The notes below the pieces were generated by a model. The model saw only the letters and a program-made list of their open reading frames with translations, had not been told where the DNA came from and ran no database searches. A stretch of 64,000 nt of DNA from Eledone cirrhosa (Eukaryota), in assembly GCA_964016885.1 (NCBI GenBank), contig OZ024742.1, forward strand, positions 284,952,001 to 285,016,000, read 5' to 3'. Of this stretch, positions 1,400 through 62,618 are shown one piece after another. A program made the position numbers and the translations under genes. Each line of letters starts with the position of its first letter. Position 1 is the stretch's first letter.

Positions 1400-2880
1400 A
1401 TGGCTTACAACAAACGACATTGGTCCGAGAATGAAATCGACCTCCTTATAAATGCATGGTTTTGACTGTCCCAAACTGAAAAATATAGACGCTTTATGTC
1501 TGACTGATATTGCCGAAAAACACAGCCCAAATATTTAATTATTGGTGAGATACTGCAGAAACAATACTGATATGGTTGATCTGAGCTCTATCATTGATAT
1601 TAATCCTCAACATGCTATATCGGACATAACGTTTGACGCCCCTGATGTCTTAGCGGTAATAAACGAAATTAAACACAACTCAGCAGTAGGCCCCGATAGG
1701 TCCCCTGTTAGTGTCCTGAAAGTGTGGCGACACCAACTTGCCACTCCTCTAACTAATCTGTGGAGGAATTCACTGGACCCCGGCTATATACCTGAAAACT
1801 TTCTGTCCCAGTTTTCAAAAAGGGAAACAAGTCCCGTGCATAAATTACCGTCATTTCTCACTCACCTCTCATATCATTAAGGTATTTGAGAGAGTGGTGA
1901 GATCACGAATAACTCACTTTCTTGAAAGCAACAATCTGCTGGACCCCAACCAACACGGGTTCCGTAATGGAAGCGACTGCCTAATGCAGCTCCTGCATCA
2001 CTTTTATGACATTTTAAGAGTTTTGGGAGAGGGCTCCAACACTGATTTCAGCAAAGTCATTTAGAGGGCTGATCATAATATTCTATTGAAAAAAAACTAT
2101 CCAGCGTTGGTGTCTCTGGAAAGTTACTGCAATGGATCAAGTGTTTCCTGACAAACATGGGTGACCGGACATGCCTTCAATCAGATCTTCTTGCTGTTAT
2201 CCAATGGCCGGGAAAAAACAATATGCTGCTGAACGAGGACAAATTCGAGTTAATCCACTTTGGAAAAGAGGATGCATTGAAACTCTCCTATTCCCTTCCC
2301 TCACGTGAAAGCCTCATGCCATCCAACAACATCAGTGACATTGGAGTAATTGTTGATAGCAACACAAGCTGGATCACTCATATAAACAGCAAAGTTGACA
2401 AGGCCCACAGAATATGTTCCTGGATTATCAGAACTTTCCAGTCGCGAGATATTCACACATTATCCTTCTCTTCTCTACTTTTGCCCGACACCACCTTCAA
2501 TAATGTTGTCCACTGTGAGCGCTACATTATCTGCATGATGTGGAAAATATTCCATTAGCGTTGCCCAAATGAAGTTGGCATCATCTTTAAAGTACACTTA
2601 AGGTTTGGCCCCCGTGCTGTCCACCCACAATAAAAATCAAACTTGTATCTCATAACAACATTACGACACAATTATTTCACCTCAACTGGTCCCGCTCTTT
2701 TTAACATTACACCGAAACACATTAAAACAGAAACTGATCCCATAAAAGTCATCCCGGATATGTCTCAGTAAACAACTCTACTTGAGTGGGCCATGGTGTC
2801 CAAATCCTGATTTGAAAGACTTCACCAGGTGCTGCTATTAAGTTAGAGATATGGCCTGGCCGAAACCTATCAGAGTTATA
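1400..2880 (+). mobile_element. CR1/L2-type LINE reverse-transcriptase fragment, decayed
   Basis: ORFs 1542-1880 and 2157-2558 plus intervening frames give SAVGPD, QHGFRNGSDCLMQLL, DFSK, LQSDLLAVIQW..NNMLLNEDKFELIHFGK and DIGVIVD..HINSKVDKA. Confidence 0.8.
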
Positions 2881-3558: not shown

Positions 3559-3673
3559 GGCACCTCTTATTCACAGCGACAGCGCTTTCTTCAAGGTCCC
3601 CTTATACTAATTAAATTAAATTTCGTAGGTGGGGACCTTGAAGAAAGCGCTGTCGCTGTGAATAAGAGGTGCC
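3559..3673. repeat. Left terminal hairpin of the EVE (perfect 43-bp arms, 29-nt loop)
   Basis: ggcacctcttattcacagcgacagcgctttcttcaaggtcccc (3559-3601) is the exact reverse complement of 3631-3673. Confidence 0.95.
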
Positions 3674-3724
3674 CTATTATAATTACCACTGTTTACAAGC
3701 GGAATTGATATTTCATAAACTTCC

Positions 3725-5541
3725 ATGCCACGTAGAAGACGTGAAAAAATCCGCTGATAGAGGATACTATCGAAATACATGCGCCGGGCTACAATTTCCT
3801 AGGTCCAGGAACTAACATTTTCGACAAGTTAAAACACGAACCGAAAAACGAACTAGATCGTCTAGCCAAAGTTCATGACCTCCACTACACCGATCCTTAT
3901 AAAGATACTTGGGACGCAGATAAAGAATTCATCTAAGGAGCTATCAAACAATGCCCTTTGGGGATCTTATCAGCAGGAGCTACTTACGCTAAACACGCTC
4001 TTGGACTCGACAAAGTCTTCAGACCAGAACATTCAGATAATTATCGTAGTCTTTTTCCTCCTCCTAACAATCATCAAACTATGGCGGATTCGAAAGAGGC
4101 CGCAAACAACCAAGTCACGGAACAACAAACATCCAATCGAAGGGAATCTCAGACGATTCGGGAAACTTCAAACGAAGATTCATAATATCGAGAACTTTCC
4201 GAAACTGCATTAAAACAACAGACATGAACCAAGCGACAATCGACTTCAGTAAATTTCAATCTACTGGTGAAAAGTCATACCACAACATAGGACACTATGT
4301 GCAAGGTTTGGCAAAATCAAGAGATTACATCGTACCTTATTGGATGACGACCTGGATAAAAGCAACTCAATGGGAAACTATGACACAAACTGCTACATCG
4401 TACAGAATAGCGAAACAAGGATTCAAAATAGACGACATTATATGCAGCGAATGGGCAACACGTAACAACGAAGAAATCTTCGTAGACGCACCAACGCCAT
4501 ACTTTGAAGTCTATGTAGACACCGGCAAATACATCGGTCACGGTAACTTAAAACAATCAGCAAGTTACCAAATGGAGGTTTAAGGCTAACACAACCTTCT
4601 ACGTTCGAAAACATGGAATTACCAACATACGAATTCATATACAATGCACCTATAGGATTGGTTAACCAATACGTTTCGCCACCTATAGATACAACTGTAG
4701 AAAAAGGATCTACTTTATTATATAATTTCACAGATTGGAGAGATATGAGATCCAAAAAAAAAAATTAAGACAAGGCGATACATTCACACATGTATGGGAG
4801 AACCCATCAAGATTGGAAATTGGTTTAACTAATTTCAGTCAAAACCAAAACTATGCAGTCACAGGACTAACCAACACATATGGCCAAGCATTCAATTGGG
4901 GAAAAAATGCTCAAGTAGACATGACTTGGGATGGATGCTAAGACACAGGAACAGCACCATATGTAGGGACAGTGACAACAGAGAGAAACGAAGGATTCGA
5001 CGTATACAGAAGAAGAGCGCGAGACCCAACACAAGAAGACATTCATTACACAGAACATTCAAATATAACATTCGACCACCAAAAAACGAGAAAGGTGGCA
5101 GGATTAGACATGCTGGATTCGGGAGATATGGTGGTAGCAAACAGAACAGTAATTAACAAAGTTCTTTACACTCCGGAAGAACCACAGGAAATGGTTCTCT
5201 TAAATGTGCCAGTGGTGATAAGACCGAACAATTCACAACCATGTATCTACTTCACATTTGACCTTACATATTACATTGAGTTGGAATGTAACTATGAACA
5301 ATTCAACCACCCACAAGTAGTAGCAACGGCGATCCCCTAACCAGTGCCCAATTAGCGCCAGGTTGGAATCCTAGCCAACATTCATGTACACACCCAAGCA
5401 GGCATCTTCACGGAACAGCAGCCAAAAATAGAAAAACTGGGCGGACCATACAACACAACAAAGAATCGAAAAGACCGTTACAATTTATATCCGGGCACTT
5501 CATCAATAAATAACACGCCCACTGTAAAGCACTTTAGTTAA
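3725..5541 (+). pseudogene. VP1: Parvoviral capsid (VP1/VP2) pseudogene with N-terminal phospholipase A2 domain
   Basis: MPRRRREK[fs]NPLIEDTIEIHAPGYNFLGPGTN..ELDRLAKVHDLHY..DADKEF contains the Ca-binding loop and HDxxY catalytic motif. There is a premature TAA at 3934-3936. The jelly-roll-like segments YIVPYWMTTWIKATQWETMTQTATSYRIAKQGFKIDDI, LRQGDTFTHVW and TFDLTYYIELECNY follow. Several frameshifts and stops occur before the final TAA at 5539-5541. Confidence 0.88.
3875..4213 (+). CDS. Intact 112-aa ORF overprinted on the VP1 PLA2 region (+1 frame), with a predicted single transmembrane helix
   Basis: The ATG lies inside the catalytic His-Asp codons (cAT Gac). The hydrophobic run IQIIIVVFFLLLTIIKLW is followed by the basic RIRKR, and there are no internal stops. 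Expression is not shown. Confidence 0.5.
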   Translation: MTSTTPILIKILGTQIKNSSKELSNNALWGSYQQELLTLNTLLDSTKSSDQNIQIIIVVFFLLLTIIKLWRIRKRPQTTKSRNNKHPIEGNLRRFGKLQTKIHNIENFPKLH

Positions 5542-6647
5542 GTAGCAGTTCAAACTTCTATCGATATATTCACCGAATGGATAAAACATCACAACATCGA
5601 TGCAGAAAAGTTCGCTAGAGAAACATTCGAAATATTTCACAGGATACATCCCCCCAAAAATGGCTTCCACATTACAGGAGTATCCAACAGCGGGAAATCA
5701 TATGTTCTAAGATCTATATAGAAATGGACTTATGAATACAGGAAGAATGAGGTGCCAAGCTGCGGACAGTTTTACTTTCGGCAGTTGTATAGATAAACCA
5801 CTCATCTACACCGATGAAATGTGGTTTACGAATAACAATGTCGAAGAAGGAAAGTGTATACATATTAATGTAAAACACCAAAGCGAACGCATGCTGAAAA
5901 GGACGCCTAGTCTTAGCACTAGTAACACAGATCCATGGAGAGTTGTACCACAGGACGAACAAGCCCTGCGTAACAGATTATTTTATTACATGACACATAG
6001 ACCCATGGACAAGTTGAAAGAATGGGGCAAAATCGAACTCAATCCACTAATGTGGTTAACTATCTGGAAAACATATATTGACAAATATATAGAACACAAA
6101 TATACAGATATTTACTTGACAGACGACAAACCACCAACATCAGATTTATATGTCATCCCATCGGACTTCGATTCGCCAACAACAAAACGACAAATTAACA
6201 CAGTTAAAAGAAAATTGGTAGAACTTTACGAAACACCTAAAATGCAAAAAATACAAAATACATACGACGATTTAGCAAAATTTAGCAAAAGCGTGCTTAA
6301 AAGACATAGAAGAAACAGAAGAATGCAAATACGACCCAGAACAGGACACACAAGCTTGCTTAATACACGGGAGAATAACACCGGCTTGTAATTTTAATTA
6401 CATTAATGCATCAACTGATGATATTGAATGGGTTTCAGCGGAGGATGAATTATGACTGGGGGGAGAGAATTTTTTTAAAGAATACATTCAAACACAGATA
6501 CAGTTACCAAGAAATTATAAAAAAAATTGTTCATGGAATTTCCATAAAAAATTAGCAAACCAAGACCAAAGACAATCTGTTCTTATTTTAAATGATCTAG
6601 GTTTGGAATATTGTTTTGATTATCTACCCTTCCCTATTTGGACATAA
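5542..6647 (+). pseudogene. NS1: Parvoviral NS1 remnant: SF3 helicase plus C-terminal tail, N-terminal HUH nuclease missing
   Basis: Motifs are PPKNGFHITGVSNSGKS (Walker A, 5650-5700), a frameshift at ~5719, LIYTDE (Walker B), HINVKHQSERMLKRTP (B'), STSN (motif C) and ALRNRL (arginine finger). A 10-bp duplication at ~6270-6290 shifts the frame of a Cys-rich acidic tail. Confidence 0.88.
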
Positions 6648-6932
6648 TGCGCATGCACGCGACCAAAAACTTTTGTAAATAACCAGTTCAATGGTACGCG
6701 CATTGTAATCTTTTATATCTTTAATAAATTTTTAAACTTTATATTTGACTTTGTTATTATTATATATAAAAAGAGAGAGAGAGAGAAGGAGATGGCGGCC
6801 ATGACACCAGGGACCAGTGAAAATAAATCAGACTTTTGGGATGCGCGCACACGCGAAAATAAAGTAAGTTTCAGCAATGGCGAAGGTCAGGTAATATAGG
6901 CACCACCCAAATGTCGCTGATACTGGTATTCT

Positions 6933-6996
6933 AAACCTGTACTTTGTTTTCGCAATGGCCCTTAGCTCTGCCATTGCGAAAACAAAGTACAGGTTT
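6933..6996. repeat. Right terminal hairpin of the EVE (perfect 27-bp arms, 10-nt loop)
   Basis: aaacctgtactttgttttcgcaatggc (6933-6959) is the reverse complement of gccattgcgaaaacaaagtacaggttt (6970-6996). Confidence 0.95.

Positions 6997-9164: not shown

Positions 9165-62618
<53,454 letters not shown>

What the first reader, a model, noticed from the sequence alone, without database searches (positions are those of the whole stretch)
3875..4213. Intact overprinted membrane-protein ORF in the +1 frame of the VP1 PLA2 region (MAAP/X-protein-like)
Seen in the sequence: a 112-codon ORF starts at the ATG hidden in the catalytic His-Asp codons and encodes one strong hydrophobic helix (IQIIIVVFFLLLTIIKLW) followed by RIRKR. 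It stays open while the overlapping VP frame has a stop at 3934. Established: vertebrate parvoviruses overprint small membrane-associated proteins on the VP N-terminal region, such as AAV MAAP, the erythroparvovirus X ORF and protoparvovirus SAT. Inference: this is an analogous viroporin- or egress-type accessory protein in an invertebrate parvovirus. It may be the only product this EVE can still make, though survival of 339 nt by chance is plausible.
Basis: partly seen in the sequence, partly recalled or inferred. Interest (0 to 1): 0.7.

Follow-up and report, generated by a model that had tools for sequence, protein, structure and literature searches.

The report
Hidden membrane gene in octopus parvovirus
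A fossil parvovirus in what is likely an octopus genome hides a second reading frame inside its capsid gene; related copies keep it with a codon pattern pointing to selection, and it is predicted to make a small membrane protein that likely helped the virus leave cells, although this copy is broken just after the membrane helix.

Summary
The 112-codon +1 ORF at 3875-4213 is present and is very likely a real viral gene. All 14 lineage-A copies tested keep a hydrophobic +1 helix just before the inferred VP2 start, though the capsid-frame residues there are not conserved. The helix rests on T at capsid third positions (67%, against 21% in the capsid body). Synonymous change is reduced in the overlap. 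A sister lineage and 21 of 21 unrelated PLA2 genes have a closed +1 frame.

'Intact' is wrong for this copy: a frameshift at 4090-4107 puts the last ~36 codons in another frame. Its survival fits neutral decay.

Likely mechanism: leaky scanning gives an N-out/C-in single-pass protein aiding release; expression and function are untested. It works like X/ARF1 and MAAP but fails their membership tests.

These elements also run hairpin-capsid-NS on one strand, the reverse of the usual parvovirus order. I found neither feature in print (10 searches) or in this scan's notes.

The parts
3559..3673 (.). Left terminal hairpin of the endogenous parvovirus, 52 nt upstream of the capsid ATG
   Evidence: 52-nt arms, 92% complementary; DNA fold z = -18.9; elsewhere in the genome it matches only another viral copy (C4); a host repeat lies just upstream
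3725..5513 (+). Broken VP1/VP2 capsid gene: frameshifts near 3740, 4100, 4550, 4760 and 5340; stops at 3934 and 4939
   Evidence: tblastn with open capsid frames of two other copies; ends in a GHFINK-stop like the outside capsids
3772..4023 (+). PLA2 region of VP1 (calcium loop, His-Asp-x-x-Tyr at 3874-3888), interrupted by TAA at 3934
   Evidence: PF08398 E 2.3e-10
3875..4095 (+). Genuine part of the overprinted +1 ORF (about 72-76 codons), from the ATG in His-Asp to WRIRK
4028..4084 (+). Predicted transmembrane helix (NIQIIIVVFFLLLTIIKL-W), written over the polar VP1u linker just before the inferred VP2 ATG at 4081
   Evidence: 14 of 18 residues hydrophobic against 2 of 18 in the capsid frame; T at 14 of 20 capsid third positions against 4.6 expected; model helix with pLDDT about 88-91 over residues 51-70
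4090..4213 (+). Frameshift (within 4090-4107) and out-of-frame tail of the reported ORF; not homologous to the +1 tail of other copies
5545..6391 (+). C-terminal half of NS1 (SF3 helicase), downstream of the capsid gene on the same strand; the first ~278 residues are absent in this copy
   Evidence: PF01057 20.5 bits against cut-off 20; tblastn with a whole NS frame from another copy
6933..6996 (.). Perfect hairpin, candidate right terminus (viral origin inferred; sequence differs from the left hairpin)
   Evidence: 27-nt arms, 100% complementary; z = -12.5; no second copy of the hairpin found in the genome search

Best explanation
This is the broken fossil copy of a likely genuine viral accessory gene, written in the +1 frame of the capsid gene of a parvovirus lineage endogenised in a likely octopus genome, and predicted to encode a ~110-residue single-pass membrane protein that likely helped progeny virus leave the cell. 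SHOWN: the frame, its ATG and its hydrophobic helix are conserved across divergent copies through synonymous choices in the capsid frame. INFERRED, translation: one capsid mRNA would be read by leaky scanning, from the VP1 ATG to this ORF's weak ATG to the strong VP2 ATG. INFERRED, topology: about 50 residues outside, one helix, a basic cytosolic juxtamembrane stretch and a ~40-residue tail (N-out/C-in). INFERRED, role, by analogy to AAV MAAP: made late with the capsid, it would act on ER or plasma membranes to promote release. My odds: about 0.9 that it is a selected viral gene, 0.75 for the topology and leaky scanning, 0.5 for egress as the role. Selection acted in the virus; this endogenous copy is decaying neutrally.
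For: (a) 14 of 14 lineage-A copies tested have a +1 helix (KD19 1.64-2.76). Resampling with capsid-body codon usage reached the observed value in 0-3 of 20,000 trials for 12 copies, and in 35 and 161 for the other two. (b) Over the 18 codons before VP2, T is at 67% of third positions but 15% and 14% of first and second positions, and C3 is 13% (13 copies); capsid-body T3 is 21%. (c) Capsid-frame identity to the window in that linker is 0-1 of 18 in 7 of 12 copies, yet the +1 frame stays hydrophobic (10-14 of 18). The copies fall on several deep branches. (d) Fourfold-site identity is higher in the overlap than in the capsid body in 12 of 14 pairs, p<0.05 in 7; L037/L040 46/53 against 62/123 (p=2e-6); window/L006 21/31 against 25/64 (p=0.008). 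(e) The frame is open from ATG past the helix in 8 of 10 copies whose His-to-Met stretch was scored, against null rates of 0.02-5%. (f) The start codon switches: His CAT-GAC in 8 copies, Tyr TAT-G in 7, neither in 1. (g) There is 1 ATG between the VP1 and VP2 starts in both copies counted (348 and 369 nt), against 41 in 1,461 and 16 in 993 nt downstream. The ORF ATG has a pyrimidine at -3 in 9 of 9 copies; a purine(-3)/G(+4) ATG follows the helix in 9 of 9. (h) There are 3-5 K/R after the helix in 11 of 13 copies. (i) Controls: lineage B has 10-14 stops in the same +1 stretch in 3 of 3 copies; 21 of 21 scorable unrelated PLA2 loci have at least 2 stops. (j) An outside protein, P0080, runs from PLA2 into a hydrophobic tail that fits the +1 frame of related linkers at 20 of 35 positions, against at most 11 for +2. 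(k) MAAP is a +1 egress factor (PMC8556243, passages; PMC11359079, passages).
Against: There is no evidence of transcription, translation, membrane insertion or function. All DNA-level evidence comes from one host genome; the DNA of the outside capsids P0002-P0007 could not be read. The pairs share two reference copies, so they are not independent, and 2 of 14 show no excess. With a uniform-codon null, three copies are weak (607, 142 and 67 of 5,000). An ATG within 8 codons of His-Asp occurs in 10 of 21 unrelated PLA2 loci, and 3 of those 21 have a +1 stretch with KD19 of 2 or more, so neither feature alone is special. The Trp after the helix is imposed by the ATG-G of the inferred VP2 start, and the N-terminal T/S run by His-Asp-x-x-Tyr (what the sequence shows). 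Only M1, N18 and W70 are invariant among 8 ORFs. The VP2 start is inferred. For B19 X, a knock-out showed no phenotype (PMC10891878, Introduction), so egress is not the only possible role.
Confidence: 0.62

Rival explanations
1. It is a real membrane protein with another job: anchoring or regulating VP1 PLA2, remodelling the nuclear envelope or ER, countering host defence, or killing the cell as an oligomeric viroporin, rather than escorting particles out.
For: The sequence evidence shows selection for a membrane helix but says nothing on function. The helix is uniformly hydrophobic rather than amphipathic like MAAP's (PMC8568889 passages). B19 X has similar features and no known function (PMC10891878).
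Against: The ORF shares the late capsid mRNA and position with MAAP, the one PLA2-overlapping protein with a tested function in the papers read (PMC8556243 passages). No conserved polar pore-lining residue is visible in the helix.
Confidence: 0.24
2. The signal is non-coding: a U-rich element, splice-acceptor tract or ATG-free leader that tunes VP1/VP2 translation, with the open hydrophobic frame as a by-product.
For: The region lies directly before the VP2 start, is depleted of ATGs and has reduced synonymous change.
Against: T enrichment is confined to the third codon position (67% against 15% and 14%) and C is not enriched. Nucleotide and capsid residues diverge while hydrophobicity is kept. 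The frame avoids stops for 100-117 codons in 7 copies, and the ATG moves between two codons without being lost.
Confidence: 0.07
3. Chance: an open, hydrophobic +1 frame imposed by PLA2 and linker residues, or by base composition.
For: His-Asp often gives an ATG (10 of 21 unrelated loci); for this copy alone openness has p about 0.02; other ORFs of about 100 codons occur in the window.
Against: The resampling nulls fix the capsid residues and still fail. The +1 frame of capsid bodies has 114 stops in 1,440 codons and a longest open run of 51. Lineage B and unrelated PLA2 genes are closed.
Confidence: 0.03
4. The host has co-opted this copy's ORF as a membrane protein, the only product the element still makes.
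For: The first ~72 codons are unbroken while the capsid frame is stopped; a hairpin and upstream viral sequence are retained.
Against: The ORF itself is frameshifted. Neutral survival of 72 codons has probability 0.38-0.49. Two short ORFs (3725, 3779) precede its weak ATG. The ORF is broken in 7 of 14 copies tested.
Confidence: 0.04

Closest known systems
Erythroparvovirus X protein and tetraparvovirus ARF1 (PMC10891878; abstract to conclusions read, parts 1-4 of 6)
   Same: +1 frame over the PLA2-coding part of VP1; AUG start; about 80-110 residues; central predicted transmembrane segment followed by a basic, cytosolic stretch; reduced synonymous change; expression unproven.
   Different: In X/ARF1 the helix overlaps the calcium-binding loop, upstream of His-Asp. 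Here the ORF only begins at or after His-Asp, and the helix lies about 50-70 codons later, beyond PLA2, over a non-conserved linker. So the helix here is not tied to conserved enzyme motifs. Host is a mollusc, not a vertebrate.
AAV MAAP (PMC8556243, PMC8568889, PMC11359079; passages)
   Same: +1 frame in the VP1/VP2-unique region; T/S-rich where it overlaps PLA2; hydrophobic helix merging into basic residues downstream of that; similar size.
   Different: MAAP starts at CTG, has a C-terminal cationic amphipathic anchor and is described as unique to dependoparvoviruses. This ORF starts at ATG, has a uniformly hydrophobic central helix and a ~40-residue tail. No database relative was found.
Protoparvovirus SAT (as described in PMC10891878 section 4.4)
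   Same: Short +1 transmembrane protein in the capsid gene.
   Different: SAT is encoded over the VP2 N-terminus, downstream of PLA2. Here the ORF starts inside PLA2 and its helix ends at the inferred VP2 start.
Cephalopod parvovirus-related sequences of the 2016 survey (PMC5013282; passages and supplement rows)
   Same: NS and VP fragments from Octopus and Sepia; mollusc sequences branched outside known genera. The Sepia helicase row resembles lineage-A NS by eye (not aligned).
   Different: Fragments only; the passages seen do not describe gene order, termini or an overlapping ORF.
Swazi bat-associated megaparvovirus lineage (PMC13426907; Introduction and section 3.3.1)
   Same: A PLA2-bearing ORF lies upstream of NS1; known partly from endogenous copies.
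   Different: There the capsid gene still follows NS1 and lacks PLA2. Here the whole PLA2-capsid gene precedes NS1.

Membership tests
Parvoviridae (the element) | NS1 with SF3 helicase | tested here: met
   PF01057 E 9.9e-17 for the whole NS frame in L040; AAV Rep is the best PDB match, E 1e-11; window piece just over the cut-off
Parvoviridae (the element) | HUH endonuclease domain in NS1 | tested here: inconclusive
   A single H-F-H motif at residue 94 of the L040 NS frame; no Pfam nuclease match; that part is deleted in the window
Parvoviridae (the element) | VP1 with N-terminal PLA2 and parvovirus jelly-roll capsid | tested here: met
   PF08398; Atlas first hit PF00740 cluster at 0.95; top Foldseek hits are parvovirus capsids at 9-19% identity, but the model is low-confidence, pLDDT 43
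Parvoviridae (the element) | Terminal hairpins | tested here: met
   Hairpins upstream of VP in the window, L037, L041, L047 and downstream of NS in L040; none found upstream of VP in the other 9 loci scanned
Parvoviridae (the element) | Monosense genomes place NS before VP (recalled general rule; not read as an absolute statement in any paper) | tested here: not met
   VP precedes NS on one strand in the window, L006, L037, L040 (twice), L042, L043, L047, L048, L113, L117
Parvoviridae (the element) | Linear ssDNA in T=1 particles | not testable with these tools
   No virion data
X / ARF1 | +1 frame overlapping PLA2 codons, AUG start | tested here: met
X / ARF1 | Central transmembrane segment followed by a basic region | tested here: met
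   Hydropathy and charge counts; no dedicated transmembrane predictor was available
X / ARF1 | Reduced synonymous variation in the VP1 overlap | tested here: met
   Pooled 252/424 against 343/828; p<0.05 in 7 of 14 non-independent pairs
X / ARF1 | Transmembrane segment over the PLA2 calcium loop, with its conserved positions | tested here: not met
   The ORF starts downstream of the loop, at His-Asp or Tyr
MAAP | +1 frame in the VP1/VP2-unique region | tested here: met
MAAP | CTG start upstream in VP1u | tested here: not met
   ATG start in 15 of 16 copies with the His-Asp region; the frame is closed a few codons upstream in the window
MAAP | C-terminal cationic amphipathic helix | tested here: not met
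   Central, uniformly hydrophobic helix with a ~40-residue tail
MAAP | Sequence homology | tested here: inconclusive
   An 8-sequence profile found nothing at E<=10 among 1,342 candidates of 55-205 aa; no MAAP sequence was compared directly
MAAP | Promotes virus egress | not testable with these tools
   Needs experiments
SAT | Encoded over the VP2 N-terminus, downstream of PLA2 | tested here: not met
   ORF starts in PLA2; helix ends at the inferred VP2 ATG

The most novel reading that the evidence does not exclude
An undescribed parvovirus group of cephalopods, with a reversed capsid-first monosense genome, independently invented a single-pass membrane protein in the +1 frame of VP1u. Its sister lineage with the same gene order lacks it. 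That would make the PLA2/VP1u +1 frame a repeated birthplace of membrane proteins across Parvoviridae (X/ARF1, MAAP and this), each time with the membrane segment in a different place, and would imply a general need for a membrane protein co-expressed with capsid PLA2.
Probability: 0.5. Interest if true: 0.8.

Novelty: new variant of a known kind. Interest (0 to 1): 0.66.

Why it matters
Whether X/ARF1 and MAAP share an origin and a function is stated as open in PMC10891878. This lineage gives an invertebrate case in which the membrane helix sits over a freely evolving linker, so selection on the hidden frame can be separated from PLA2 constraints. It comes with a sister lineage lacking the gene, a natural contrast for dating a gene birth by overprinting. 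Endogenous copies alone were enough to detect it, which shows a way to find hidden genes in viruses nobody has isolated. The capsid-first gene order, if confirmed in free virus, would add a genome plan to Parvoviridae.

Tried and rejected
Expression: no RNA holder listed; the three DNA runs are one sample of one study and may be the assembly's source. Relatives of the ORF protein: Pfam gave only an E 0.95 match; the profile search found none; the Atlas gave no usable hit, with a low recognition value; the profile against proteins already fetched gave a best outside E of 0.03. These blanks are expected for overlapping ORFs and show neither absence nor novelty. DNA of free relatives: two scans of viral contigs found none; the metagenome scan gave 30 loci matching only the PLA2 part, used as controls, 9 of them dropped because my His-Asp pattern did not match. 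Two of 16 lineage-A copies were left out: L024, whose linker is in another frame but shows a hydrophobic run by eye, and L026, whose linker is cut short (KD19 1.54). The ORF model is one long helix with pTM 0.27 and says little beyond helix propensity. No oligomer prediction was obtained, so a pore-forming oligomer is untested. The low K/E/Q/M/W content of outside linkers (30/364 against 366/1,766) fits a +1 helix but is weak: Met is excluded by construction and linkers differ from capsid cores anyway. Concatemer or circle as the cause of the gene order was considered: the VP-to-NS gap is only about 26-75 nt in L040 (twice), L037, L042 and L047, with hairpins outside; L037 has a local inverted duplication of the VP end, not a terminus. 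Not fully excluded without free virus. Literature: 10 full-text searches found no description of this ORF or of a capsid-first parvovirus. The library lacks most subscription journals, and older densovirus papers that, as I recall, mention small ORFs over PLA2 in iteradensoviruses were not found and could reduce the novelty. PMC9500916, PMC11125579 and PMC9616810 (passages) were irrelevant. Supplements of PMC10891878 were not opened.

Full report
1. The observation. Window 3875-4213 gives 112 residues and a stop. The ATG lies within CAT-GAC, the His-Asp codons of a frame that matches the parvoviral PLA2 family (PF08398, E 2.3e-10) and is stopped at 3934. The hydrophobic run and RIRKR are as reported. 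Contigs of one DNA sample show no differences over this stretch; that sample may be the assembly's source, so this only argues against a consensus error.

2. The element. A 52-nt-arm hairpin at 3559-3673 precedes a capsid gene at 3725-5513 with at least 6 breaks. The C-terminal half of an NS1 helicase follows on the same strand, then a perfect hairpin at 6933-6996 whose viral origin is inferred. The genome is 3.0 Gb. The only named capsid relative is an Octopus vulgaris predicted protein, and an unchecked note of this scan calls the genome octopod, so the host is likely an octopus. Four full-length capsids (606-621 aa, 37-40% identical) lie on ~4-kb public contigs, and a profile search found 110 relatives at E<=1e-10. 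NS matches PF01057 and AAV Rep. The capsid resembles parvovirus capsids by language-model features and, from a low-confidence model, by fold.

3. Copies. A protein search of the genome gave 27 matches: 16 copies of this lineage (A) and 8 matches to a sister lineage (B), some copies matching in pieces. With X at every break, the tree separates B, the window's group of four, a group of eight, two single deep copies, the O. vulgaris protein and the five outside capsids (quick method, deep forks unresolved).

4. Is the +1 frame selected? I tested 14 of the 16 lineage-A copies. All 14 have a +1 hydrophobic segment (KD19 1.64-2.76) ending at the inferred VP2 ATG. Holding capsid residues fixed and resampling synonymous codons with capsid-body usage, the observed value was reached in 0-3 of 20,000 trials for 12 copies and in 35 and 161 for two; a uniform-codon null is weaker, with three copies at 67, 142 and 607 of 5,000. 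The cause is visible: T occupies 67% of capsid third positions in the 18 codons before VP2, against 15% and 14% at positions 1 and 2 (13 copies) and 21% in the capsid body. A capsid third position is the middle base of the +1 codon, where T gives F, L, I, M or V. Capsid residues there share 0-1 of 18 with the window in 7 of 12 copies while the +1 frame stays hydrophobic. The frame is open from ATG past the helix in 8 of 10 scored copies (null 0.02-5%) and runs 100-117 codons in 7; elsewhere the +1 frame has 114 stops in 1,440 codons. Fourfold-degenerate sites are more conserved in the overlap than in the body in 12 of 14 pairs (p<0.05 in 7; best 46/53 against 62/123, p=2e-6; window 21/31 against 25/64, p=0.008), though pairs share references. 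The ATG sits in His-Asp in 8 copies and four codons later in Tyr-(G) in 7, and is absent in 1. Controls: lineage B has 10-14 stops over the same stretch and 4-5 of 18 T3 (3 of 3 copies); 21 of 21 scorable unrelated PLA2 loci, out of 30 fetched, have at least 2 stops, but 10 of them also have an early ATG and 3 have a hydrophobic +1 stretch. Outside this genome the evidence is indirect: P0080 passes from PLA2 into a hydrophobic tail compatible with the +1 frame of related linkers at 20 of 35 positions, against at most 11 for +2.

5. A correction. Alignments to three close copies put a frame-shifting gap within 4090-4107. Downstream of it the reported ORF matches their +2 frame, and the true +1 tail lies in the frame of 3874, stopped at 4183-4185. 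This copy is therefore not intact. At the capsid gene's rate of breaks, 72 unbroken codons has probability 0.38-0.49, and 7 of 14 copies have the ORF broken, so nothing suggests host co-option. No RNA holder was listed, which is no evidence either way.

6. How it likely works. In the two copies counted, the only ATG between the VP1 and VP2 starts is this ORF's (348 and 369 nt, against 41 in 1,461 and 16 in 993 nt downstream; lineage B has 5 in 360). The ORF ATG has a pyrimidine at -3 in 9 of 9 copies and a purine(-3)/G(+4) ATG follows the helix in 9 of 9. By established scanning rules this suggests one mRNA giving VP1, the ORF product and abundant VP2 (inference). Basic residues follow the helix in 11 of 13 copies, so the positive-inside rule predicts N-out/C-in. 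The model shows a confident helix over residues 51-70 and little else. The role is the weakest step. MAAP, in the same frame and region, promotes AAV egress (PMC8556243, PMC11359079, passages), so I commit to release at about even odds, against other membrane roles.

7. Comparison. PMC10891878 (parts 1-4 of 6 read) describes X and ARF1 as +1 ORFs whose helix overlaps the calcium loop, distinguishes MAAP and SAT, leaves common origin open, and names no invertebrate case in those parts. This ORF meets the frame, start, topology and synonymous-change criteria of X/ARF1 but not the helix position. It meets MAAP's frame and region but not its CTG start or C-terminal amphipathic anchor (PMC8568889, PMC8556243, passages). 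It is not placed like SAT. It works like them and is not filed under any. No protein relative was found.

8. Gene order. VP precedes NS on one strand in the window, L006, L037, L040 (both lineages), L042, L043, L047, L048, L113 and L117. The gap is about 26-75 nt in five of these, and hairpins lie upstream of VP in four and downstream of NS in one. L045 has a lineage-B NS upstream of a lineage-A VP, which I read as two neighbouring insertions. That monosense parvoviruses put NS first is recalled knowledge. The nearest described case has a PLA2 ORF upstream of NS1 but the capsid downstream (PMC13426907, Introduction and section 3.3.1). A 2016 survey listed Octopus and Sepia fragments and placed mollusc sequences outside known genera (PMC5013282, passages and supplement rows).

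9. Novelty and score. Ten searches found no report of this ORF or of this gene order; the library omits most subscription journals. This scan's notes had nothing on it. Overprinted membrane proteins on VP1u are a known kind; this is a new variant, with good computational support for selection, no functional data, and an unusual genome plan around it. Interest 0.66.

Noticed in passing
window 3559-6996; L006, L037, L040, L042, L043, L047, L048, L113, L117: Capsid gene before NS1 on the same strand, with hairpins outside, in two distantly related lineages (capsids 27% and NS 23% identical). This reverses the usual monosense order and may deserve its own study.
   Followed up: yes
L029-L036; L040:344-3640; L047; L048: A second parvovirus lineage (B) with PLA2 and the same gene order but no overprinted ORF. 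Seven matches on C5, C10, C14 and C998 score identically and five sit in 524-codon open frames, some in inverted pairs, suggesting recent copying or carriage in a larger repeat.
   Followed up: partly
G000 C12 8.97-9.08 Mb, C25 7.43-7.46 Mb, C2 345.37-345.40 Mb, C841: Pieces of both lineages are piled together, mostly on one strand, as would be expected of small-RNA-producing clusters; not tested.
   Followed up: no
P0060, P0069, P0080 (outside proteins): A more distant capsid group with a longer VP1 N-terminus; P0080 runs into a hydrophobic tail that fits the +1 frame, so the overprinted helix may extend beyond this genome's lineage.
   Followed up: partly
L037:4656-4789: A 66-nt inverted duplication of the capsid 3' end changes that copy's C-terminus.
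   Followed up: partly
window about 11100-41000, minus strand: Exons of a p97/VCP-type AAA ATPase gene (name recalled from motifs). The viral element lies on its 3' side on the opposite strand; the last exon was not located, so an intronic position is not excluded.
   Followed up: partly
window 49701-52811 (+): An open 1,036-codon frame with endonuclease- and reverse-transcriptase-like motifs, likely a young LINE, followed by long (TA)n arrays.
   Followed up: no
window 1539-2558 (+): Decayed reverse-transcriptase fragments upstream of the viral element (PF00078 E 1e-4).
   Followed up: no
window 6761-6906 and L106: A 70% match to one other place (C6) with no viral coding sequence nearby; origin unexplained, so the element's right boundary is uncertain.
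   Followed up: partly
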